Shown here: one piece after another, positions 1,465-12,900 of the stretch | Layout of the letters: each line of letters starts with the position of its first letter | Position numbering within the stretch: the first letter of the stretch is position 1 | Source of the DNA: Alteraurantiacibacter sp. | GTDB taxonomy: Bacteria > Pseudomonadota > Alphaproteobacteria > Sphingomonadales > Sphingomonadaceae | Length of the DNA stretch: 42,761 nt | Direction of reading: 5' to 3' | NCBI GenBank assembly: GCA_041740775.1 | Contig: JBGSLI010000185.1 | Location: forward strand, 1-42,761 | Position numbers and translations under genes: made by a program | Notes under the pieces: model-generated | Databases searched by the model: none | Told to the model about the DNA's origin: nothing | What the model saw: only the letters and a program-made list of their open reading frames with translations

Positions 1465-1556
1465 GGAGACGTGGGTGAGTGGCTGAAACCAGTTCCCTGC
1501 TAAGGAACCATACCTCTATCGGGGTATCGAGGGTTCGAATCCCTCCGTCTCCGCCA
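1465..1556 (+). tRNA. tRNA-Ser(GCT)
   Basis: Acceptor stem GGAGACG/CGTCTCC plus GCCA; anticodon stem GTTCC-ctGCTaa-GGAAC; long variable arm; T-loop GGTTCGAATCC. Confidence 0.97.
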
Positions 1557-1666
1557 AATACGCTTTCCCAGACCATCCCATAATGCCCCAAAACCGCAGA
1601 AATGCGCTGTTTGTGGAATTTTCGTCGTCCACATAAATCCCTATATGTTCCCTTGCATCCGACATA

Positions 1667-1692
1667 GAGTGTGGGTCTGAGTGTGGGTCTGA
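1667..1692 (+). repeat. Tandem 12-bp direct repeat GAGTGTGGGTCT x2 (+GA); probable integrase arm-type binding sites
   Basis: Exact copies at 1667-1678 and 1679-1690, between the tRNA 3' end and the integrase start. Confidence 0.7.
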
Positions 1693-1704
1693 AGGGAAGA
1701 GGCG

Positions 1705-2847
1705 ATGGGAAGATTGACGTCAATGGGGATCAAGAATCTGGCGGAACCGGGGCGCTATTCCGACGGCGAGGGTCTGATCCTCAAACTCGCCGGAAAAGGC
1801 AAAGGCAGCTGGATCGTCCGGGTCCAGGTCAATGGTAAGCGCCGAGACATCGGATTGGGCACCCTCGCCAACCTTCCTTTGGCAGCCGCTCGAGAAGCAG
1901 CGAGAGCCCTGCGCAAAGAGATGAAAGCCGGAGTCGACGTTCTGGCAGAGCGTGAGAAGGAAGCATTGGTAATTCCCAACTTCCGCGACGCTGCCAAGCT
2001 GGTCCATGATGAACACAAAGCCGCGTGGAAGAACGGCAAGCATCAGGCGCAATGGATCAACACGCTCGAAACCTATGCCTTCCCGACTTTGGGCGACAAA
2101 CTCGTTTCGGAGATTGACGGACCGGCTATTCGTGATGCGCTCTCTCCAATCTGGCTGACCAAGCCAGAAACCGCGAGGCGCGTACGGCAGCGAATCGGTT
2201 CGGTGCTCGATTGGGCCTGTGCGAAGGGGTTTCGCGAAACCGAGGCACCGATGCGCTCGGTAATCCGTGGGTTGCCTCGCCAGCCCAAGAAGCAAGGCCA
2301 CTTCGCCGCGATGCCCTACCCAGACCTTCCCGCGTTCGTCGCATGGCTGCGTGATCGCTCGTCGGTCGGCCGTCTAGCCTTGGAATTCCTGATCCTGAAC
2401 GCCTCACGCTCCGGCGAAGTTCGCGGCGCGCGCTGGAGCGAAATCGACCTCAAGAAGTCGCTCTGGACGATACCCGCCGAGCGCATGAAAGCAGGGACGG
2501 TCCACGTTGTCCCGCTATCGGAAGCGTCATTGGACGTCCTCGGGCGGGCAACGGACTTTCGCTCTCCCATTGGCGATCTGGTCTTTCCAGGGCAGAATCC
2601 CCGTCGCCAACTTTCGGACATGACCCTGCTCAAGATCCTGCGGGACAAAGGTGACGAATATACGGTACATGGCTTTCGCTCGTCATTTCGCGACTGGGCG
2701 GCAGAAAAGACGAACTACCCAGGCGAGATAGCAGAAGCCGCCCTTGCTCATACGATCGCCAACAAGGTCGAAGCGGCCTATCGGCGCACGGATTTCCTCG
2801 ACAAGCGGAGGCCTTTGATGGCTGATTGGTCGGAATTCGTAGCATAG
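1705..2847 (+). CDS. P4-like tyrosine integrase with N-terminal arm-binding domain
   Basis: N-terminus YSDGEGLILKL..W..R...GKRRDIGLG; catalytic R (ASRSGE), K (RMKAG), HGFR, LAH and AAY; lies directly downstream of the tRNA. Confidence 0.95.
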   Translation: MGRLTSMGIKNLAEPGRYSDGEGLILKLAGKGKGSWIVRVQVNGKRRDIGLGTLANLPLAAAREAARALRKEMKAGVDVLAEREKEALVIPNFRDAAKLVHDEHKAAWKNGKHQAQWINTLETYAFPTLGDKLVSEIDGPAIRDALSPIWLTKPETARRVRQRIGSVLDWACAKGFRETEAPMRSVIRGLPRQPKKQGHFAAMPYPDLPAFVAWLRDRSSVGRLALEFLILNASRSGEVRGARWSEIDLKKSLWTIPAERMKAGTVHVVPLSEASLDVLGRATDFRSPIGDLVFPGQNPRRQLSDMTLLKILRDKGDEYTVHGFRSSFRDWAAEKTNYPGEIAEAALAHTIANKVEAAYRRTDFLDKRRPLMADWSEFVA

Positions 2848-2949: not shown

Positions 2950-5157
2950 TCAGCGGATAATGTAACTTGAACGTAGGGCAAAGCTGGAGCCGGCCCGGAA
3001 CTGACCCAACGGCGTGAGTCTGAAATGCGTCACATTGGCATCGCATCCATCTGAATCGGGAACCGGCACATAAGTCCAGCTCGTACCGTTGTCGTTTGAG
3101 AAGGCGAGCGAATCTCCGGCATCGCCGAGCGCGACATAGCCCAGCTCCAGCCCGGAAGAAGGCGATCCGTCCAGGAATACCAGCGGCTGGCCCGAACCAT
3201 TGGTATCGAAACAGATTTTCGCATTGTCTGGTCCATCGTCGGTGATCACTACGCTGCCATCGTCAGCAGGCGATACACCGCTGTTGCTTATCGTTATGAG
3301 ATAATCCACCAAGGCTCCCGGAATTCTGCGGGGTTGCACAGCGCCATTGACCGGATCGCTGGCAATGGAACTGACCTTTGCTACCGACAGGTCGGCAAAC
3401 GGATTGCACATGGAAATATCGTGAATGGCTATTGCCTGGCCATCCGGATCGGCTGGCGCAGTATTGGCATTGCCGTATATCATGGTGATCGTATCGACCG
3501 GCTGCGAGAAGGTGACCACAACATTTCCGTCACCTGTAGACTCCGATGCCCCGCTATCGCCAACCGCACTGTTGCCAACGACGTAATTCGTGATGCCATT
3601 GGTAAGCGTGGGGAAGACGACAGCGTCCTGATAGCTGCCGGTTACCGTCAGCTTATCGGCAAAATCATTGGCGGCAAAATCCACGTCGAAGACGGTGAAC
3701 TGCGCCCCGGCAATCGCACTTGAAAACGATATCGTGGTGGTTGCCGTCTGATTGACGGTGGCGAAGTCAAGAAACTGGTGGAGCGATTGCTGGGTTGGAG
3801 CAAGCCCACCCGAATTGGTGTTGGTAAGCGAAGGCGAAAGGCCGCCGAAGGTCGCGTCATTGACCCAGGTCCCGGACGCTGAAATATCGAAGCTGACCGT
3901 ACCGATAGTGGCCACCTGATAGCTGTTTGACAGCGATCCGGAACTCCAACTGCGCGTATCCCAGTCGAATACGCTCGATCCGCGCGGGCACGACAGTACC
4001 GGCGGCGTGCCCGCCGTTCTGGTTCCCTGCACGGTAAAATTGGCAGTGGCGTAATCGTCTTCGCTGGCGACCGAATTGCCGGGTATGGAATCGGGATCGA
4101 AATTGGGCGATGATTGCACATAGGCGATATTCGAAACGCTTATTCCAGCAGGTGCAACCACAGTTCCTACGAGCGTGATTTGCCGGAATCCGCCCGCAGC
4201 GATCGTTGGTATCGTCCAGTTCCCGGAAGCCGGATCATAGCTGCCAAATCCACTGCTGCTGGTGAGGCTGAATCCGGATGGCAGGACATCGTTCACAATC
4301 ACGTTGCTGGCGTTCGCCGGACCGGCGTTTGCCAGGCGCAACGTATAGCTAATCGAACTGCCGCTGGCCGGCGTGAGATCGCTCACAGTCTTGGTCAGTG
4401 ACAGATCGGATGTGCTGACGCCGCTTTGCTGCCAGGTGAAATCGGAAAGCCCGATATATTGCCAGTTTCCCGTGGGGTTGCTGCCAGGGCTGCCTTGTCC
4501 GAACAGATAGCGAATGCGTACGCGCTTGACCGTCAGGGCACCGAAATTGACTGCGATATTGCCTGTGGTGCTGGTTACTCCACCTGAATATGCGGTACCG
4601 TGGAAGCCTTGCAGCCCATTGATCGTGGTCGTGCCAACCGCGCTGCCCAGCGTATAGGCTGAAGTAAGCGAGCGCAGATTTTGCCAATTGCCATTGCCGG
4701 TATCGTATTCGATCACAACCGCATCGTGGAAGAAGGGGTTGGTCAAAAAGCGATCGACGTTGGCTATGGTGAAGCGCAAATTGGTAACTGCAGTGTCAAG
4801 GGTATAGGTAGATTCGAAAAGATCGCCGGCATCAAATACCGAATGGTCCATATTGTAGAACAGCGTGCCTGTCTGGCTGCCCACCTGGCCGGTATAGTAG
4901 GAAAGGATCCCGGCAGAAAAGGAACCCGTAAGGTTGGCATCATTGCCATCGCCATCGGTCACCACTGCGGTGTTGATCGTCACGCTGTTCACGCCGACAT
5001 TCAGCGTGGTGCCATTGTTGATTGCGCTGAAGTTCGCCTTGCCCAACCCGGTCCAGTCGGCGGTGATCGTGGTTTGCGCGACGGACGCATCAGGGCGCAG
5101 CGCCAGGAGTGCGATGCTGGCGACGAGTGCGAACAGGAGGTGGCGGAACAGTCTCAT
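2950..5157 (-). CDS. Secreted DUF11-domain protein, putative adhesin
   Basis: Signal peptide; one complete DUF11 repeat (DLSLTKTVS..ISYTLRLANAGP..VIVNDVLP..VSNIAYV); Thr/Ser/Gly-rich beta domains; second, C-terminally truncated DUF11 (DLSVAK..IPGALVDYLITISNSG..ITDDGP..SYIIR*). Confidence 0.8.
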   Translation of the reverse strand: MRLFRHLLFALVASIALLALRPDASVAQTTITADWTGLGKANFSAINNGTTLNVGVNSVTINTAVVTDGDGNDANLTGSFSAGILSYYTGQVGSQTGTLFYNMDHSVFDAGDLFESTYTLDTAVTNLRFTIANVDRFLTNPFFHDAVVIEYDTGNGNWQNLRSLTSAYTLGSAVGTTTINGLQGFHGTAYSGGVTSTTGNIAVNFGALTVKRVRIRYLFGQGSPGSNPTGNWQYIGLSDFTWQQSGVSTSDLSLTKTVSDLTPASGSSISYTLRLANAGPANASNVIVNDVLPSGFSLTSSSGFGSYDPASGNWTIPTIAAGGFRQITLVGTVVAPAGISVSNIAYVQSSPNFDPDSIPGNSVASEDDYATANFTVQGTRTAGTPPVLSCPRGSSVFDWDTRSWSSGSLSNSYQVATIGTVSFDISASGTWVNDATFGGLSPSLTNTNSGGLAPTQQSLHQFLDFATVNQTATTTISFSSAIAGAQFTVFDVDFAANDFADKLTVTGSYQDAVVFPTLTNGITNYVVGNSAVGDSGASESTGDGNVVVTFSQPVDTITMIYGNANTAPADPDGQAIAIHDISMCNPFADLSVAKVSSIASDPVNGAVQPRRIPGALVDYLITISNSGVSPADDGSVVITDDGPDNAKICFDTNGSGQPLVFLDGSPSSGLELGYVALGDAGDSLAFSNDNGTSWTYVPVPDSDGCDANVTHFRLTPLGQFRAGSSFALRSSYIIR

Positions 5158-8100
5158 CGGCCAAGTCCCAGGAAGCTGAAGGTATCCGCGTCGAATTTCA
5201 TGCGTACCGCAGCATAGATGCCTTCATCGGTATTTCGCGCGGCAGTAAAGTCCGGATCGTTGAAACCGGCAAAATTGTATCCCACTGTCAGCAAGACCCC
5301 TTCGATAGGTACAAAACCGATATTTGGGCCGATCGCATAACTGGTCGCGCCGTCAAAATCGGCGCGCACTGTGATGCTTGTGCCCAGTTCGATGCCCTCG
5401 CCCACACCGAGCCGCGCATCGACTCCGGCAAGCAGCGTGTCGCTGGCGAAATCGAACCCTTCGAACCGGTCGAAATTGTGGCGAAGGCCCAGAAAAACGC
5501 CCAATTCGCTGCGGCGAGCGAGACCGGCGACCAAACCATTGCCGTCATGGTCCGCATCATCGAATTCATGCGGCGACCAATTGGCCGAAACGCTACCGAT
5601 CAGGCGGCTCGATTTGGCATCGCCGTCCACCAGAAGAGCTGTACGCCCGGCAGGGCCGGTCTCCCCGGCAATGGCATCGGTCACCTTGTCGCTGCGAAAT
5701 TCAATCTTGCTGAGGACAGCGAATTCAGAATCCCCGGGCCGGTGCGCCCAGGCAAGGGCGGCGTCAAAGATCTCCGAATCAGCCCCGTTTTCTCCTTCGG
5801 CCTGCGTCCAGGTAAATCCGGAGCCCAACATTCTGCCCTCGCCAAGTTCGCGTATCAAGCCTGCGGTAAAACCTGTCCGATTGGCGAATTCGCCATCCCG
5901 GTATTCGCCGCGCGCGGTCGCGTTCCAGCGATCACGGCGCCAGGCCGCACCTACAGTAATTGCCGTGAATTGCTCGAACAGGCCGCCTCCCTGGCCAAAC
6001 TGGCCTCCGCTCGAAAGCGGTTGCTGGATATTTACCAGGTCATCGGTGGCGGGCGCACCATCGAGTGTCCAGTTGCTGTCGAAGGTTGCATCCAGGCTCA
6101 ATTCGGGATTGATCTGCAAGGTCTGTGACAGCCCGAAGGCGGCAAAGCTTCGGGCACCCAATTCGGAAATGTCCTGCTGACCGAGGCTGGTGTTGACCAG
6201 CCCGCCCATCCACGGGGTGATTTCCAGCCCGCCGCGAAGCGTGCTCGATGTAAACTCGCTACCATCGGCAATTTCATAATTGCCCAGAATGCGCACGTCA
6301 TTGGTTATCGCGTAACGTGCGCCCAGGCGGTGACGGGTGGGCAGATCGGCAGATTGGGCCTGGTCCAGAGCGATGCTGGTGCTGGCGCTGATTTCCATCC
6401 TGTTGTCGAACGCGCGCTGGGTAACGCCGCCTTCCAGAACCGTCGAACTGTTGGTGCTGCTATCGGGCAGGCGGTCGGTGAAATGGGCAAAACCGAGGCG
6501 AAAATCGGTGCTGAGGGTGGTATAACCCAGCTCGACTTCGGCTGCCTGACGACGCGCCGCATCGCTCAGGCTTTCATCCTGCCAAACGCTGCCGAGCACG
6601 GTCAGGTCTTCGGTCAGGCGGGCACGGGTATCCACGCCGACTTTCCGGCGGCCAAGCTCGACACCATTCTGGTGACCGACACCGAAATCTGTACCGGTCG
6701 ATCGGGCATAGGCGAGGATATCAAGCGTTCCTGTCTGATGCTGGGCTTCTACAAGCCAGCCGGTCGCGGTAGACTGGTCAGCGCGACTGGCAGCAACTTC
6801 GGCCCGAATTTCCGTGGCATCACCGATATAGGCACGAAGATCCAGCCCGCCGATCAGCGTGCGCGGCCCATCGCCCTGGTCACTGATGGCAGTGGTGCCA
6901 AGACGCACCGACCCATCTCGGCTTTCCCATTCTGCCCGGATCCCGGCATTCAACTGGCCATCGCCCAGATTGTCTACTTCGTAATCCACCACGATGAACT
7001 GCGGGTTCATGTCAAAATCGCGGCTGAGAACGGGCTGGCGGAAGGTGATCGTGCCCGAAAGCGGATCGATGTCATAGTCAGAAAAGCGCGTAAGCACCTG
7101 CGATGATACGATGATTTCAGAACGGAAGCGGTCACGCACCTCAAGGGTAACGGTCTCGCTATTGGGAACAATGGAGCGACCGGACAGATCATAAGGACCT
7201 GAAATGCCCTGTCCCTGGATCTCGTCTCGGCGGAAACGCGTTCCGATTTGGGCACCGAAACCGCGCACGCTCAATTGCTCCTGCCGCGCCTCTGCCAGAA
7301 TGCCCGTTGCCACGCGCTGGTAACGGGTCAGGCGCGTTTCATCGAAGCCGCTTTCGAAATCGCCGTACAGAGCATAAAAGCTAGCCGTTTCGATACGGAC
7401 GTAAAGTTTCTCGCGCGATGCAGCATCAAAGCTGCGGTGCGATCCATCGGCGAAAACGGTATAATAGGCGTCGGGGTCGAGGGTTCCGAGCAGGCGGGCA
7501 TCGTCTTCCTGCGCCGCGCTGTCATATGCAATGGTGACAAGGTAGCGACCCAGAACCTGGCCTTTGGCGTAAAGTGCAAGGCGCGCATCATCGCCAAGAT
7601 CGCTCTCGAAATTGCCGACCCGCTCCATATTCTCGGCCACGCTGCGCGCGCCGAGCGTTCCTTCAGCGAGGCCGACAACGGTCCATTCGATATCGCCCGG
7701 CACGATCCACGCATCAAGCTGCTGATCGCGGGAGACTTCGCCATCGTCGAACCGGAAATCGAGATGGAGCGAGCCGCTGACCATGGTCGGCGCAAGCTCG
7801 ATCAGCGCAATGCCATCGCTGCCACCTACCGTCCAGCGCGCAGAGGAGGGCCCGCGACGCGACAATTGATTGATCTGCTGGCGGGCCACTTCCTCGGCGC
7901 TCTGATAGGGCGAATTCACGCGGAATTCGCCGGAAACGCCTTCGCGCATGGGGAGGCCTGCGGCATCGAGCACACGGATAGCAACGACAGGCGCAGTGCG
8001 GCCATCGGCAACAAGGGTCGATTGTTCGCGCACCAATTCCACGCGGGCAGGAATGGTGGTGAAATGGACTTCGCGTTCGAGTTCGGCGATCACGGCCCCG

Positions 8101-10283
8101 GCACCGCTTATCACCTGCGCCGTGAGCACTGTGCGCCCCCCATTAAGTGAGACACCACGCCAGTGGCTTACTTCCCAGCGCCCTTCGGCCGGTCGAAGGA
8201 CGCCTTCGAATGCGAGAGGGCTTATCCGTTCGCCGTCGACAAAGAGATTGACCATCTGGCCGCGACGGTGGCGGATGGCGACGCGGATCGAGGGAGCACG
8301 GGGGTTGGCGTCCACGGTGGGAGCGAGCCAGTCGATATCGCCATCGCCGGATGCCAGCCAGTCGACCCCGGCGTCCCCGATCGCAGGCACCGTCTCAGCG
8401 ATCCCGGATACAGATGGTTCCAATGCGGCAATGTCCGACCCGCTGCGGCCCAGAATGGCCAAAGGTCGGGTCTGCTCGCGCAATTCTGTCAGCACGCCGT
8501 CGGGAACCGTAGCGTGGAAATCAACCACCGCCAGCGAACCGCCCTGGCCGGTAACAAGGCGGGAAATCGCGCTGCCCTGGCTGCGGCTCGATCGCGTGCA
8601 ATCGATAAATTCGCCGCCTTCGGGCAGAGTCATGCGCGAAGCCTGCACGACATGGGTGCCGGGCACGATCCCGTCGAAGTGGTAACGTCCGTCGGCATCG
8701 GTTATCGCAAAGCTGCCGTCCTCCATCATCACCCTTATGCCGGGAATACCGATACGCTGCGGTTCATCGCCAATGTCGCAACGCCCGGCAGTGATCCGGC
8801 CGATGATCGTCATGTGGCCGGCAATCGTGTCGCGCAGGACTTCCACCGAAGCCGAAGCCTCGCTGTGCCGGCCGACCGAGTCGATGGCGCTGGCGCGGTT
8901 TTCCGCGTGTCCGGGCGGGGCATCGGGAGCGACAGTCATCGCATAGGTAACGCGGCGCTCGCCGCCGGCGGCAATCGCTCCCAGAGCGAAAGAAAGCGTC
9001 TGGCCATCATCGGCGATGTCTACCGCGTCATCCAGCGCCGGGGCACCATCAATCCGCACTGAATCGCGCCGGAACCGCAGCCAGCGCGAGGGGCTGTCGG
9101 TCAGCACGACACCGCTTCTGGCGCGGTCCGGGTCGGCATTGCGGACGGCAAGCGTATAAAAAATGGCATCGCCGGGCTGCGCCTGGCGGCGCGAAGCAGT
9201 CTTGGTGAGCGAAACCGCCGTTCCCGGCCGGTCGAGCGGAATGTCGATCTGGACCGGAACTGGCGAGGTAAGCGAAAAGGCGTTGCCATAGGACCCATCG
9301 CCGATCACGAAGGCGCGGCCATCAGGGCGCGTGACCCGGGCGATCTGTTCAGGCAAGACCAGCGAGGGCGCAGTATAGGGCGGGGGCGGCGTAACGGCGA
9401 GCCGGTAGGTGCCAGGATTGGTCTGTGGAAACCAGAATTCGCCTGTGCCCATCCGGGTGATATTGCCAGCGGCATCGGTAACCGGTGCGCCGGAAATCAG
9501 GCTGGAAGGCCAGGCGGTAATCCCGTCTTCGGCAAAGACCTGCGCGGGCTGGCCAGTGATCGCATCGACGAGCGATACAGTCGCGCCATCCACCAGAGTG
9601 CCCGTCTCGCTGTCGAATACCACGCCAAAAGGATCCGCAAGCACATCCACCGTGCTGGAAAGAACGCTGGTATTGCCCGCTGAATCGAGAACGCCGATGA
9701 CGATCTGATTGCCATCTTCAAGGCTGAGCACGCAGTCGAGCGGAACCAGGGCTGGAGGCATCCGGCGGGTGGTGATGCTGCCGACAAATTCGCCGGAATT
9801 GGCCATGGTCTCGTAAACCGTCAGTCTTTCCTGGTCGCCGGAATCCGCTGTCAGGATGACGTCCAGCGCATCAATCGCGGCCGGATCGATATTCGCTGCG
9901 GACAGGTCAATCCTGAACAGCAGCTCGCGCCCGGCGGTAATGACGCTGCTTCTGATGACTGCGGTGGAAATCGGCTCACCGATTGGCGATTGCGCGCTGC
10001 GGGACCGTGCCTGGCAAAAGGCCGGACGATGAAGCAGCGCCTCTGCGTTTCCCGCAGTAATTGTTTGGGCAACAAAGGTCTCAATCGCCGATGGCGCCGC
10101 CTGGACTTCCAATTGCACCTGATTGGACTGACCGGTAAACGCGCGATCTGCATGGCTCCAGCGGGCATGCGCCACATTGGTGATGGTCTGGGCCTGTACC
10201 TGTCCTGCCAGCATGGCAAGCGACAGCAGCACTCCCAGGAGCGCTGCTGCCATTTGAAGCATCGAGGACAGCTTGTAGGTCAC
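5154..10283 (-). CDS. Very large outer-membrane protein with DUF11 and carboxypeptidase-regulatory-like Ig domains and a C-terminal beta-barrel-like region
   Basis: Signal peptide; GVVFDSETG..VDGATVSL and ITDADGRYHF Ig-like motifs; internal DUF11 (VSLTKTAS..PGDAIFYTL..VLTDSP..ENRASA); long amphipathic beta-strand C-terminus (GIYAAVRMKF). ATGA overlap with the next gene. Confidence 0.75.
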   Translation of the reverse strand: MTYKLSSMLQMAAALLGVLLSLAMLAGQVQAQTITNVAHARWSHADRAFTGQSNQVQLEVQAAPSAIETFVAQTITAGNAEALLHRPAFCQARSRSAQSPIGEPISTAVIRSSVITAGRELLFRIDLSAANIDPAAIDALDVILTADSGDQERLTVYETMANSGEFVGSITTRRMPPALVPLDCVLSLEDGNQIVIGVLDSAGNTSVLSSTVDVLADPFGVVFDSETGTLVDGATVSLVDAITGQPAQVFAEDGITAWPSSLISGAPVTDAAGNITRMGTGEFWFPQTNPGTYRLAVTPPPPYTAPSLVLPEQIARVTRPDGRAFVIGDGSYGNAFSLTSPVPVQIDIPLDRPGTAVSLTKTASRRQAQPGDAIFYTLAVRNADPDRARSGVVLTDSPSRWLRFRRDSVRIDGAPALDDAVDIADDGQTLSFALGAIAAGGERRVTYAMTVAPDAPPGHAENRASAIDSVGRHSEASASVEVLRDTIAGHMTIIGRITAGRCDIGDEPQRIGIPGIRVMMEDGSFAITDADGRYHFDGIVPGTHVVQASRMTLPEGGEFIDCTRSSRSQGSAISRLVTGQGGSLAVVDFHATVPDGVLTELREQTRPLAILGRSGSDIAALEPSVSGIAETVPAIGDAGVDWLASGDGDIDWLAPTVDANPRAPSIRVAIRHRRGQMVNLFVDGERISPLAFEGVLRPAEGRWEVSHWRGVSLNGGRTVLTAQVISGAGAVIAELEREVHFTTIPARVELVREQSTLVADGRTAPVVAIRVLDAAGLPMREGVSGEFRVNSPYQSAEEVARQQINQLSRRGPSSARWTVGGSDGIALIELAPTMVSGSLHLDFRFDDGEVSRDQQLDAWIVPGDIEWTVVGLAEGTLGARSVAENMERVGNFESDLGDDARLALYAKGQVLGRYLVTIAYDSAAQEDDARLLGTLDPDAYYTVFADGSHRSFDAASREKLYVRIETASFYALYGDFESGFDETRLTRYQRVATGILAEARQEQLSVRGFGAQIGTRFRRDEIQGQGISGPYDLSGRSIVPNSETVTLEVRDRFRSEIIVSSQVLTRFSDYDIDPLSGTITFRQPVLSRDFDMNPQFIVVDYEVDNLGDGQLNAGIRAEWESRDGSVRLGTTAISDQGDGPRTLIGGLDLRAYIGDATEIRAEVAASRADQSTATGWLVEAQHQTGTLDILAYARSTGTDFGVGHQNGVELGRRKVGVDTRARLTEDLTVLGSVWQDESLSDAARRQAAEVELGYTTLSTDFRLGFAHFTDRLPDSSTNSSTVLEGGVTQRAFDNRMEISASTSIALDQAQSADLPTRHRLGARYAITNDVRILGNYEIADGSEFTSSTLRGGLEITPWMGGLVNTSLGQQDISELGARSFAAFGLSQTLQINPELSLDATFDSNWTLDGAPATDDLVNIQQPLSSGGQFGQGGGLFEQFTAITVGAAWRRDRWNATARGEYRDGEFANRTGFTAGLIRELGEGRMLGSGFTWTQAEGENGADSEIFDAALAWAHRPGDSEFAVLSKIEFRSDKVTDAIAGETGPAGRTALLVDGDAKSSRLIGSVSANWSPHEFDDADHDGNGLVAGLARRSELGVFLGLRHNFDRFEGFDFASDTLLAGVDARLGVGEGIELGTSITVRADFDGATSYAIGPNIGFVPIEGVLLTVGYNFAGFNDPDFTAARNTDEGIYAAVRMKFDADTFSFLGLGR

Positions 10284-10315
10284 GTCGTTTTCCGGTCAGT
10301 CTCGGCAGGTCCGGA

Positions 10316-11365
10316 TCACCTGATCGTGACGGTGAAATAGAGCGTGCGCGTCAGGCCGCCGGCAATGTCCGACAGGCTTTCGTTCACGTTCGTATCGGCG
10401 ATCGTGTAGCCATCCACCTCGGTGCCACCGGTACATTGTCCGCCGCTCAGCGTGCCATCAACCATCACGTCACCGGTGGTGCCATAGGCATCGGGGAAGA
10501 ATTCCACTTCCAGCGGAAGATCATCGTCCACCACCACATTGGTGGCCGAGGCCGCTCCGGCAGCGTTGGTGACTGCGATGCAATATTGCACTCTGGCCCC
10601 GGGAATTGCCCTGGGATCGGTCGTAAGGTTGACCGGGTCCCAGATGACCGTGCTGAACTTCTGCACGCTCATCACCGCCGCATTTACCGCAACGGTGTGG
10701 CTGGCGGCATGATCACCCTGCGATGCGCTGTCGACACCGGCAATGCCGATACCGTCTGCCAGAACCGTTTCCACTGCGTTCGGATCATCGGCACCGGTCG
10801 AATCAACGATTTGTGCGCCGATTGCGCCGGAACCGGCCTCATGCGCGTTGGCAACCAGGATGATGTCGGTCGATTGGCCATTGCTGGCGGTCAATGGGAC
10901 ATCGAATGCAACCCAGACATTGCGGGTTTCGTCCTCGGCCATGGAATCGATGAAGGTGATTTGCTCGCCAGCATCGAAGACGCCGTTGGTGTTGAGATCG
11001 TCGAATACGACCACGTTTTGCGGCGCAAAATCGCCGCCCGCCGCGCCCGATGCGGTCAGCGCATAGCCGACGACCGCGTTCGAATCATTGGTGACCGTGA
11101 ACTGGCGAACGACGCCCGTCGTGCCCGCCGGGGCATTGGGCGATGCGCCCACGGCCGCAACCGTCACGTCAATCTTGCGGTCAACCAGAAAGGTGTCGCT
11201 ATCCTGGACAGCGGTCTGCTGGACACCACCGACCTGAAAATCGACGGTAACCGTATTGGTAATTGAATCGCCCGCGGTGGTCCCTTCGGCCATCGCCGGC
11301 GTCGCCGAGAAACTGACAAGCGCAAATGCGCTTACCGCTCCCAGCAGTTGCCTGCTGCGTTTCAT
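10316..11365 (-). CDS. Secreted DUF11-family protein, putative major filament subunit
   Basis: Signal peptide (..ATPAMA); mature N-terminus EGTTAGDSITNTVTVDF; C-terminal DUF11 (SVQK..AIPGARVQYCIAVTN..VVDDDLP..LYFTVTIR*); RBS GAGGA. Confidence 0.8.
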   Translation of the reverse strand: MKRSRQLLGAVSAFALVSFSATPAMAEGTTAGDSITNTVTVDFQVGGVQQTAVQDSDTFLVDRKIDVTVAAVGASPNAPAGTTGVVRQFTVTNDSNAVVGYALTASGAAGGDFAPQNVVVFDDLNTNGVFDAGEQITFIDSMAEDETRNVWVAFDVPLTASNGQSTDIILVANAHEAGSGAIGAQIVDSTGADDPNAVETVLADGIGIAGVDSASQGDHAASHTVAVNAAVMSVQKFSTVIWDPVNLTTDPRAIPGARVQYCIAVTNAAGAASATNVVVDDDLPLEVEFFPDAYGTTGDVMVDGTLSGGQCTGGTEVDGYTIADTNVNESLSDIAGGLTRTLYFTVTIR

Positions 11366-11434
11366 TGTCTTTGTCCTCGATATGTGACCCGCGAAAGTGC
11401 CGCCCGCGGGTGTCGGCGGTTATCCTCCGCCGAT

Positions 11435-11905
11435 TCAGCGGATGATGGCGGGATATTCGAGGCGCCCCGACCCGCCGGGTTCAACCACGGCGAGGGTCCA
11501 TCGAATATGCGTGACGTCGCGGTGTGCGGCCGGACGGATTGTTCCGTCCTCCGCAGTTACCGAAAGGTCGGATAGGCGGCCCCAGTTTGCACCGCCGTCA
11601 ACAGAGACCAGCAGATCCGGATCAGCGTCGGGCGCAAGGCGCACCGGGCCCGGCAGCGGATTGGTGACGACGAAGTTTTCGACCGGCTCGGAGCCCGTGT
11701 TGGCGTAGTTCGTCCCGAAAACCAGGCGATCGCCGGGCACGATTGTGCCTGGCACAACCAGGTCGACCCGCGTCTCGCCGCTGGCATCGACGGTTTCGAC
11801 AACGGCCTTGACATCGCCTTCAAGCGCGATGGGCTGCTCCTGGGCCTGTGCAGCGGGAGCCGCCGTCGCCAGGAGTACGCTACAAAATGCCACTATAAAA
11901 TTCAT
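11435..11905 (-). CDS. Small secreted single DUF11-like domain protein
   Basis: Signal peptide; IVPGDRLVFGTNYANTG..VVTNPLP..SVDGG..VTHIRWTL..PGGSGRLEYPAIIR. Confidence 0.8.
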   Translation of the reverse strand: MNFIVAFCSVLLATAAPAAQAQEQPIALEGDVKAVVETVDASGETRVDLVVPGTIVPGDRLVFGTNYANTGSEPVENFVVTNPLPGPVRLAPDADPDLLVSVDGGANWGRLSDLSVTAEDGTIRPAAHRDVTHIRWTLAVVEPGGSGRLEYPAIIR

Positions 11906-11937
11906 TGTTACAGCCCTTTATGAACCAAACCTTATAT

Positions 11938-12900
11938 TCAATCTACGATGACATCGAAGGTAATTGCCGGACTGGTCCCAGTAGCAACGGTACCCAGATC
12001 AACGGTGATGCCCGTTGCACCCGCTTCGCCTGCGTCATCACCCGCCGCATCGCTCAGCGGGTTGCCGTCCAGCGTAATCGTGCCTGCCGCATAGGTTGTG
12101 CCTGTGGGATAAGGATCGGTGATCAGGAGATTGCTCACTGAACCGCTGCCAGCGACATTTGCGGTAATGGTGTAGGTGATAACCGAGCCGGGCACCGTGC
12201 TGGTGCCGCCGAACGGATCGGCAACGCTCTGTTCCTTGACCAGCGTGACTGCTGTGACGCCCGCAATGACTGAGCCCATAGCAAAGCCCGTCCCCCCCGT
12301 GCTGCCGACAATGGCATTCACGCCGTTCACACCCTGGCCGGCAAAAGCGGTCCCTGGAACGCCGGTTCCGGTCACGGCTTCGGCAAGCAGTTCGACATCG
12401 CTTGTTTGTCCGTCGCCCGCCGAATTGGGCACGATGACATTTACAAAGACGGTGATCTTTTCGTCGGGAGCAAGTTCGGCGGTTGTTTCCGGCCCGGTCA
12501 GGATCTCGTCGATCCCTGCATCATAAATGCCGTTTCCGTTCGTATCGATCGCGATGCTTTCGATACTGGTGTCAAAATCATTTCCGGCGATGGCCGGGTT
12601 TGCCGTAAGCCGGAACGCTTCGGGACCGTTGCCTGTATTGGTCAGCTCGAAGCTGAGGGTAGCCGTGCCTGACGTTGTGGTTACCGGTGCCCCGTCGAGC
12701 GATGTGAGGGCAACATCGAGCAGCTCATCAACGGCGATTTCTACCGTATTGGATGCGACGGTTGCGACGCCCGCAGGCGTATTGAAGGTAGCCTGTGCCG
12801 TGTTCTGGATTATTGTTCCCGCATCGATACCCGTCGCATTTGCAGGCGAGGCATCGATCAGCACATTGGCCATTATCAGAAGGCATGCAGCGTGTTTCAT
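11938..12900 (-). CDS. Secreted DUF11-family protein, paralog of 10316..11365
   Basis: Signal peptide; GIDAGTIIQNTAQATF..SNTVEIAVD; TNTGNGPE; DTNGNGIYD; C-terminal TLVK..VPGSVITYTI..ITDPYP..ITFDVIVD*. Confidence 0.8.
   Translation of the reverse strand: MKHAACLLIMANVLIDASPANATGIDAGTIIQNTAQATFNTPAGVATVASNTVEIAVDELLDVALTSLDGAPVTTTSGTATLSFELTNTGNGPEAFRLTANPAIAGNDFDTSIESIAIDTNGNGIYDAGIDEILTGPETTAELAPDEKITVFVNVIVPNSAGDGQTSDVELLAEAVTGTGVPGTAFAGQGVNGVNAIVGSTGGTGFAMGSVIAGVTAVTLVKEQSVADPFGGTSTVPGSVITYTITANVAGSGSVSNLLITDPYPTGTTYAAGTITLDGNPLSDAAGDDAGEAGATGITVDLGTVATGTSPAITFDVIVD

What the first reader, a model, noticed from the sequence alone, without database searches (positions are those of the whole stretch)
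2950..12900. DUF11 operon reads as a donor-strand-complemented, possibly isopeptide-linked filament system
Seen: complete internal DUF11 repeats continue past the 'TL.GTV/TY.MTV' strand into a G-x(2-4)-N-x-A strand (AGISVSNIAYV; PGHAENRASA). Four proteins stop exactly before it (..SYIIR*, ..FTVTIR*, ..YPAIIR*, ..FDVIVD*). The missing segment appears instead at mature N-termini: AGDSITNTVTV (349 aa), AGTIIQNTAQA (320 aa) and QTITNVAHA (1709 aa). So the 320 and 349 aa proteins have donor plus acceptor, the 1709-aa outer-membrane protein has donor only, and the 735-aa protein has acceptor only. Acceptors keep a first-strand Lys (SVQK, TLVK, SVAK) and an Asp (DDLP, DPYP, DDGP); donors keep an Asn. 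Known: Lys/Asp/Asn triads form isopeptide bonds in CnaA-type pilin domains. Inference: head-to-tail polymerising pilins, an outer-membrane anchor/secretion barrel and a tip adhesin, possibly covalently linked, distinct from classical chaperone-usher pili. I cannot confirm whether this has been published.
Basis: partly seen in the sequence, partly recalled or inferred. Interest (0 to 1): 0.85.

Follow-up and report, generated by a model that had tools for sequence, protein, structure and literature searches.

The report
Split adhesin turned self-locking pilus
Five neighbouring genes cut a self-crosslinking adhesin domain in two and put the halves at opposite ends of separate proteins, which likely plug together head to tail, likely lock with a self-made covalent bond and likely exit through a predicted giant outer-membrane pore, which would be a kind of surface fibre I did not find described for double-membraned bacteria.

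Summary
Observation confirmed and sharpened. Four proteins end after strand E of a DUF11/CLIPPER domain; the missing piece is a two-strand hairpin at three mature N-termini. Asn/Lys/Asp are kept together in 240 of 253 pilB and 94 of 98 pilA relatives; the barrel protein keeps only a free donor Asn (92 of 92), the tip only a free acceptor Lys/Asp (81 and 80 of 85). Profiles of the N-terminal hairpins find the last two strands of intact repeats in one-chain adhesins (29 of 33 hits directly after strand E; 0 in shuffles). Relatives show three states: one-chain adhesin plus barrel gene; split subunits plus separate anchor and barrel; and the window's anchor-barrel fusion. The barrel model has about 38-40 strands and no sequence relative in PDB. 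Best reading: a covalently locked donor-hairpin pilus with its own export pore. Not shown: any complex (tool unavailable), bond, filament or expression; the monomer model does not exclude fold-back. The scan noted this system before on other DNA (35 findings, at least 32 genomes). Not found in ten literature searches.

The parts
11938..12900 (-). pilA, 320 aa: signal peptide (by eye), donor hairpin with Asn33, one middle Ig domain, acceptor with Lys222 and Asp262; likely minor pilin or adaptor
   Evidence: no separate pilA gene found in G633, G717, G235
12727..12834 (-). pilA donor hairpin (about residues 23-58; N33, S-N-T-V on the second strand)
   Evidence: N33 in 94 of 98 rows; its profile hits intact repeats after strand E
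11941..12255 (-). pilA acceptor (about residues 216-320; K222, D262), ends after strand E
   Evidence: K and D in 98 of 98 rows; Pfam DUF11 positions 12-84 of 114
11435..11905 (-). 156-aa acceptor-only protein without the triad (Gly30 at the Lys site, Asn82 at the Asp site); candidate reversible cap or chaperone for donor hairpins
   Evidence: no Lys at that column in 103 rows, Asn in 91 of 103; aligns to tip acceptor, HHalign 97%; in 49 of 50 pilin-bearing genomes but also 32 genomes without a pilin match
10316..11365 (-). pilB, 349 aa: donor hairpin, middle Ig domain, acceptor; likely major pilin
   Evidence: triad in 240 of 253; two tandem copies in L018; present where pilA is not found; model pLDDT 96.5
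11180..11287 (-). pilB donor hairpin (residues 27-62; N37)
   Evidence: 47% identity over 45 aa to the last two strands of intact repeats of P0121; 23 hits in P0121
10319..10678 (-). pilB acceptor (residues 230-349; K236, D281, Cys262/Cys311)
5154..10283 (-). 1709-aa outer-membrane protein: donor hairpin, Ig/carboxypeptidase-regulatory/complete DUF11/SdrD arm, C-terminal barrel; likely base and export pore
   Evidence: full barrel in the same 50 of 151 family genomes as pilB
10101..10190 (-). donor hairpin of the outer-membrane protein (residues 32-61; N36)
   Evidence: N36 in 92 of 92 rows; aligns to pilA donor, HHalign 96%
8832..9221 (-). complete internal CLIPPER domain of the arm (K361, D396, N462)
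   Evidence: 88, 89, 89 of 92 rows
5157..7703 (-). predicted beta-barrel (residues 861-1709), about 38-40 strands by my count, with an inserted beta domain near residues 1025-1105
   Evidence: AlphaFold2 pLDDT 80, pTM 0.76; fold matches are all outer-membrane barrels or similar sheets
2950..5157 (-). 735-aa tip protein: variable N-terminal domains, complete internal CLIPPER (K256, D290, N343), C-terminal acceptor; likely adhesin
2953..3396 (-). tip acceptor (residues 588-735; K594, D640)
   Evidence: K in 81 and D in 80 of 85 rows

Best explanation
The operon carries a DUF11/CLIPPER adhesin domain cut between strands E and F, and its products likely reassemble it between molecules: the Asn-bearing N-terminal hairpin of one protein likely fills the gap in the Lys/Asp-bearing last domain of the next, a Lys-Asn bond likely forms by itself, and the chain is likely fed out through the predicted barrel of the 1709-aa protein. 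Shown in sequence: the cut, the conserved residues, the donor-only and acceptor-only end pieces, the gene order and the one-chain relatives. Inferred: Sec export; polarity tip (far end), pilB repeated, pilA as optional adaptor, arm of the barrel protein at the base; growth at the base as each new donor hairpin enters the last acceptor; termination when the barrel protein's own hairpin enters it, which would tether the finished fibre covalently to its pore. Most speculative (about 0.4): the 156-aa triad-less acceptor shields donor hairpins reversibly in the periplasm so that they do not lock early.
For: (1) A free donor Asn in the barrel protein (92 of 92) and free acceptor Lys/Asp in the tip (81, 80 of 85) have no free partner in their own chain; a donor-like pattern was seen near the N-terminus of only 2 of 84 tips. 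(2) Unsplit parents exist: P0121 repeats read acceptor then pilB-type hairpin with the same short link to the next domain; P0126 is two pilins fused with acceptor running straight into the next donor (one cluster member, two contigs); P0267 has a donor, an intact internal domain and an acceptor 850 residues away. (3) Three states among relatives: one-chain adhesins of 2837-2963 aa next to a homologous barrel gene (L155, L157, L158, L160; L161 partial), split tip/pilin/anchor with a separate barrel (L154, L159), and the window's fusion. In L154/L159 donor and acceptor are about 600 residues apart. (4) Links are fixed and short: V61-V69 nine residues in 357 of 359, V227-K236 ten in 354 of 359. 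(5) pilB and the full barrel occur in the same 50 of 151 genomes; pilA-156-pilB-barrel are adjacent in 90 of 105 loci. (6) Tips swap payloads (ice-binding, P-domain, SCPU, GEVED) on one acceptor. (7) An OmpA domain sits in the arm of L124 and ends the adhesins of L155 and L157, placing the base in the periplasm. (8) Chemistry precedent: 9IFR triad; inter-subunit Asn-Lys bond of BsaA, modelled and mutated.
Against: No complex was folded and no bond, filament or transcript was observed. The pilB monomer model is confident over the hairpin too (pLDDT 94-98, pTM 0.85), which fits fold-back as well as a rigid protruding hairpin; I could not read its coordinates. Coupling analysis was noisy (Neff 244) and cannot tell intra- from intermolecular contacts. 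Isopeptide domains completed by a distant part of the same chain exist (RrgA, Spy0125; passage in PMC12617251). 13 of 253 pilB relatives lack one triad residue, 7 with Arg for Lys. The 156-aa family occurs in 32 genomes without a pilin match and was not found in G353, which has a split system, so it is neither confined to nor needed by all such systems. Loci are related and not independent.
Confidence: 0.66

Rival explanations
1. Same chemistry, but a short fixed stalk rather than a long polymer: tip, one or a few pilins and the anchor snap together once, rebuilding a fibrillar adhesin from exchangeable parts.
For: The one-chain relatives have a fixed length near 2900 aa; donors fall into two sequence types (pilA/barrel versus pilB), which could impose one order; nothing here measures subunit numbers.
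Against: pilB hairpin and pilB acceptor come from one repeat type and P0126 joins pilB to pilB, so self-addition looks possible; three genomes have one pilin type only.
Confidence: 0.17
2. The two pilins fold back on themselves as circularly permuted monomers with an internal isopeptide bond; only tip and barrel protein, if anything, pair between chains.
For: High confidence over the hairpin in the monomer model; precedent for discontinuous isopeptide domains.
Against: Both links are short and without indels; the link after the hairpin matches the head-to-tail link of P0121; pilins with several domains between the halves exist; the model's two domains fit hydin-like tandem arrays better (rmsd 6.8-7.3 over 153-174 residues) than RbmA or WxLIP (17-19.6), an indirect hint resting on my recall of those shapes; self-locked pilins would leave their place in the operon unexplained.
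Confidence: 0.09
3. Subunits join by hairpin complementation but the joints stay non-covalent; Lys, Asp and Asn are kept for folding or fit.
For: Some DUF11 domains lack the bond (PMC12617251); BsaA N35A oligomers survive unheated SDS; Arg replaces Lys in 7 of 253.
Against: All three residues are kept in 240 of 253 and 94 of 98, while the 156-aa paralogue loses Lys and Asp together, as expected of a reactive set.
Confidence: 0.08

Closest known systems
CLIPPER/DUF11 fibrillar adhesins (PF01345; PDB 9IFR; PMC12617251, passages and section 2.4 read)
   Same: Same domain and Lys/Asp/Asn triad; stalk role; the solved example also has an adhesive N-terminus and an OmpA-like anchor
   Different: There the bond is within one chain; here the domain is cut across chains. 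The paper's text has no 'split', 'truncated', 'operon' or 'barrel'
Clostridium perfringens BsaA fibres, 'exchange and lock' (bioRxiv 10.1101/2024.11.04.621531, passages read)
   Same: N-terminal donor with Asn; Lys and acidic catalyst on the recipient; predicted self-forming bond between subunits
   Different: TasA family, Glu catalyst, SipW peptidase, monoderm host, no outer-membrane pore; here CnaA-like fold, Asp, two-strand donor, tip, anchor and barrel
Chaperone-usher pili (Fim, Pap; passages of PMC13721041 and PMC11821415)
   Same: Acceptor-only tip adhesin, N-terminal donors, outer-membrane barrel with an inserted domain; FimD is the top structural match of the barrel (Z 14.2, rmsd 9.4, 344 aligned)
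   Different: Non-covalent, single donor strand, 24-stranded usher, strand-donating chaperone; no sequence likeness in any part; the candidate helper here is an acceptor; the pore carries its own donor
Archaeal thread Saci_0406 (PMC9715654, passages read)
   Same: Donor-strand filament with proposed inter-subunit isopeptide links and a predicted cap lacking one half
   Different: Bond is Asn to the N-terminal amine two subunits away; archaeal; no barrel
Enterococcus Elr/WxL pilus and CPR Pam pili (10.64898/2026.10.17.759780, PMC13278184; abstracts and outlines only)
   Same: Recently described donor-strand pili with modular tips
   Different: Other folds and hosts; abstracts report no self-made inter-subunit bond or giant barrel

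Membership tests
CLIPPER/DUF11 domain | PF01345 match | tested here: met
   Above the cut-off in tip (90.7 bits) and barrel protein (30.2); 24.5 and 20.8 against 24.6 for the truncated pilin domains
CLIPPER/DUF11 domain | Lys, Asp, Asn in order within one domain of one chain | tested here: met
   Internal domains only: tip K256/D290/N343, arm K361/D396/N462
CLIPPER/DUF11 domain | Same, for the four C-terminal domains | tested here: not met
   They end before the Asn strand
CLIPPER/DUF11 domain | Isopeptide bond actually formed | not testable with these tools
   Needs mass spectrometry or a structure
Chaperone-usher pilus | Usher-family outer-membrane protein (sequence) | tested here: not met
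   No usher family at E 0.1 in Pfam; barrel profile has 0 PDB hits at E 10
Chaperone-usher pilus | Usher-like fold, 24 strands with plug | tested here: inconclusive
   FimD ranks first (Z 14.2, 13.6) but AlgE follows at 13.0, rmsd above 9; the model has about 38-40 strands and an insert
Chaperone-usher pilus | PapD-like chaperone and fimbrial-family pilins (sequence) | tested here: not met
   No such Pfam or NCBIfam hit for the five proteins; no such PDB sequence hit
Chaperone-usher pilus | Polymerisation by N-terminal donor complementation | tested here: inconclusive
   Strong sequence support; no complex folded
BsaA/TasA fibres | TasA-family subunit with SipW peptidase gene | tested here: not met
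   No TasA-type or peptidase family among the five genes
BsaA/TasA fibres | Donor Asn, recipient Lys and acid conserved | tested here: met
   With Asp instead of Glu
Sortase-assembled pili | C-terminal LPXTG sorting signal and sortase | tested here: not met
   Pilins end on a beta strand with no sorting signal; no sortase family among the five genes
Type V pili (features recalled) | Lipoprotein pilins of the FimA/Mfa family matured by a protease | tested here: not met
   No such family hit; no cysteine at the predicted mature start, by eye

The most novel reading that the evidence does not exclude
A new class of pilus and export route in diderm bacteria: a one-chain isopeptide adhesin was cut at one point into tip, rod and base; the parts rejoin by two-strand donation, cross-link without any enzyme, pass through a barrel of about 40 strands that also serves unsplit giant adhesins, and end covalently tied to the pore's own N-terminal arm, with a triad-dead acceptor acting as a reverse chaperone.
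Probability: 0.5. Interest if true: 0.9.

Novelty: categorically new. Interest (0 to 1): 0.8.

Why it matters
It would be a fully covalent pilus in bacteria with an outer membrane, built without sortase, plus an uncharacterised family of very large barrels that also sits beside one-chain DUF11 adhesins ending in OmpA, which suggests how those adhesins cross the outer membrane. The three surviving states give a rare, testable path from a one-chain adhesin to a polymer. It is common in one family (50 of 151 genomes) and occurs in other classes of the phylum. It would also be a natural set of split isopeptide pairs with swappable tips. Each single principle has a precedent (donor strands, BsaA lock, CLIPPER bond); I rate it categorically new because no known pilus family passes its membership tests and neither pilins nor barrel have a solved relative. 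A reader who counts all donor-strand pili as one kind would call it a new variant.

Tried and rejected
Sequencing runs: no RNA holder listed. Foldseek and VIA searches of the pilB model: only generic Ig folds, best Z 9.1, 9IFR at 8.1 on the middle domain, no filament. PDB sequence searches for pilB, pilA, barrel and 156-aa protein: nothing significant. Internal-hairpin profile against donors: weak. Coupling analysis: T30-E144 (z 9.8) and D57-S238 (z 5.5) fit the model, but the cross-domain list is noisy. Search for longer fused forms gave one protein. Promoter and terminator scans were at chance level; Rfam found only the tRNA. Atlas look-alikes were unnamed or DUF11 clusters. The '502-514 aa' versions of the 156-aa protein in L097, L100, L108 are start-codon artefacts. 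Literature: ten full-text searches found no description; DUF11 passages in the Litorilinea preprint (one-chain hooks), PMC10787695, PMC13723633 and PMC11821415 concern other things; the held part (first 300,000 of 525,587 characters) of the October 2026 review PMC13721041 has no DUF11 or CLIPPER. Subscription papers are not covered, and no supplements were read; those of PMC12617251 might list truncated DUF11 proteins.
Full report
The locus. Five minus-strand genes run pilA (320 aa), a 156-aa gene, pilB (349 aa), a 1709-aa gene and a 735-aa gene, the last two overlapping by four bases. The names pilA and pilB are my working labels. All five begin with what looks like a signal peptide (by eye; no predictor was run). 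Named relatives of pilB are from Erythrobacteraceae, up to 80% identical. The operon follows tRNA-Ser and an integrase, among mobile genes.

The observation. Pfam DUF11 covers nearly the whole profile in the internal domains of the 735- and 1709-aa proteins and stops at position 84 or earlier in the pilins. DUF11 is the CLIPPER domain; its structure 9IFR has a Lys715-Asn806 bond with Asp748 (PMC12617251, passages and section 2.4). Of 266 proteins from two searches I kept 253 of 325-400 aa: N37, K236 and D281 occur together in 240, and 230 end one residue after I348. In genome loci, pilA keeps its triad in 94 of 98 rows, the tip keeps Lys in 81 and Asp in 80 of 85, and the 1709-aa protein keeps N36 in 92 of 92 (counts include the window's protein; 3 of 100 pilA and 12 of 103 barrel ORFs were dropped as short or broken). 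These loci are kin and at least one pair (L017, L044) looks like one locus counted twice.

The N-termini are the missing strands. Profiles built from the three N-terminal segments gave 33 hits of 8 bits or more in 17 multi-domain proteins and none in shuffles; 29 follow strand E of an intact repeat, 3 are N-terminal, 1 is off target. P0121, a 5697-aa repeat protein, supplies 23: each repeat reads like a pilB acceptor followed by a pilB donor, 47% identical over 45 residues, with the same short link into the next domain. The donor is thus strands F and G, a hairpin; the model shows two strands there. The reverse test, with the barrel protein's internal hairpin as profile, was weak. P0126 is a natural pilB-pilB fusion in which the first acceptor runs directly into the second donor with no signal peptide between; it is a single cluster member on two contigs, so it carries limited weight.

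Between chains or within one? Indirect evidence favours pairing between chains. The tip has a free acceptor and no donor (a donor-like pattern near the N-terminus in 2 of 84), the barrel protein a free donor, yet both keep the reactive residues. Both links in pilB are short and almost free of indels. Pilins exist with hundreds of residues and several domains between the halves. The model's two domains superpose better on hydin-like arrays than on RbmA or WxLIP (the shapes of these references are recalled). Against: discontinuous isopeptide domains within one chain are known, and couplings do not discriminate.

The 156-aa protein. It aligns with the tip acceptor (HHalign 97%) and the pilB acceptor (92%; strand A was placed by my reading of the column pattern) but has no Lys at the first-strand site in 103 rows and Asn at the Asp site in 91. 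It could bind a hairpin but not lock it. It is in 49 of the 50 pilin-bearing genomes, which fits a periplasmic cap or chaperone. But 32 genomes have a homologue without a pilin match, the 15 such or second-copy loci fetched showed no pilin nearby, and G353 has a split system without a match. This role is the weakest part of the model.

The barrel. Residues 861-1709 fold with pLDDT 80 into consecutive long strands; I count 39 outside a five-strand insert near residues 1025-1105, so about 38-40 (closure into one barrel was not inspected). No PDB sequence matches. Structural matches are outer-membrane barrels, FimD first (Z 14.2, rmsd 9.4, 344 aligned) with AlgE at 13.0, which shows a barrel and not kinship with ushers. 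In 151 family genomes the full barrel and pilB occur in the same 50. Seven more genomes had only a partial barrel match, and three pilin-bearing genomes had one as a second match.

Three states. Following those partial matches gave the most useful new result. In L155, L157, L158 and L160 a one-chain adhesin of 2837-2963 aa with many DUF11 repeats lies directly before a 1224-1487-aa barrel gene; L148 and L161 are cut but alike, and L163 was not characterised beyond its barrel. The L151 barrel is 29% identical to the window's over 338 residues (E 3e-25). The end of the L161 adhesin matches profile positions 218-577 of the 1709-aa protein (E 4e-37). In L154 and L159 the same module sits in a 740-aa protein that begins with a donor hairpin, preceded by a 792-aa pilin (donor, repeats, acceptor ending at Pfam position 84) and an acceptor-only tip, with the barrel on its own gene; L162 shows the end of such a module and a barrel. 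In the window the anchor arm and barrel are one protein. Joined in the inferred order, tip, pilins and arm reproduce the domain order of the one-chain adhesin. OmpA domains at the end of two adhesins and in the arm of L124 put the base in the periplasm. I built no tree, so the direction of change and whether the two split forms arose separately are untested.

Gene order and range. pilA-156-pilB-barrel are adjacent in 90 of 105 loci, counting three start-codon artefacts; nine loci lack the barrel gene, mostly where the locus is cut (not checked one by one). Tips keep the acceptor (78 of 84 match) but not the first domain (22 of 84) and carry ice-binding, P-domain, SCPU or GEVED payloads. pilA was not found as a separate gene in G633, G717 and G235, while pilB is doubled in L018, so pilB is the likely rod. 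Matches occur in 12 of 401 genomes of the phylum, three outside the class, and 2 of 301 of the class with a single-sequence query. Earlier notes of this scan place it in further phyla; I did not test those.

Mechanism. Inferred: subunits enter the periplasm by Sec; the tip starts the chain; each incoming pilin puts its hairpin into the open acceptor at the base; burial next to Asp makes the Lys-Asn bond; the chain moves out through the barrel; the barrel protein's own hairpin ends growth and ties the fibre to the pore. Confidence: pairing between chains about 0.85, covalent link about 0.75, export by the barrel about 0.7, long polymer about 0.7, whole model 0.66. Which donor takes which acceptor is unresolved.

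Comparison and verdict. It works like a chaperone-usher pilus in layout and like BsaA in chemistry, and belongs to neither by the tests above. Ten searches found no description, within the limits of an open-access library. My reading was written down before I saw the scan's earlier notes; 35 of them describe this system on other DNA, which is repetition, not evidence. Verdict: real, conserved, probably a new class of covalent pilus with its own pore, untested at the bench. Interest 0.8.

Noticed in passing
window 1465-2847 and 13000-42761: The operon is the first cargo behind tRNA-Ser(GCT) and an integrase; beyond it lie more integrases, transposases, RelE and HipA genes and GGDEF/EAL genes. 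Operon GC is 0.60 against 0.63 for the genome. It looks like a genomic island; no second attachment site was found in the incomplete assembly, and neither integrase nor eipA was found in the related loci.
   Followed up: partly
L134-L146, L152, L153: Stand-alone homologues of the 156-aa protein with no pilin or barrel match in the 13-kb loci fetched; 32 of 151 family genomes have one without a pilin match. Role unexplained.
   Followed up: partly
L147-L151, L155-L161, L163: A two-gene unit of a giant one-chain DUF11 or SdrD adhesin and a 1224-1487-aa barrel with no Pfam hit; a candidate export route of its own.
   Followed up: partly
L159:8296-19387, L154:741-6713: A second split system with cadherin-like middle repeats, cut at the same point, with anchor and barrel on separate genes and no 156-aa gene in the locus. 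G347 carries both kinds.
   Followed up: yes
L125:606-1817: A tip protein whose payload is an ice-binding domain (PF11999, E 2e-60).
   Followed up: no
L131-L133: Tip-like genes, often in pairs, lie far from the operon in several genomes and may supply alternative tips.
   Followed up: no
window 11366-11434: The spacer before pilB holds two GC-rich inverted repeats and a GAGGA, read by eye; it could raise pilB levels over its neighbours.
   Followed up: no
window 11435-11905 and 2953-3396: The 156-aa protein and the tip acceptor share an S-x-D-x-G-x-x-W loop that gives weak matches to Asp-box proteins.
   Followed up: no
P0267 and Atlas clusters of 881-903 aa: Long pilins with a donor, several middle domains and an acceptor.
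   Followed up: partly
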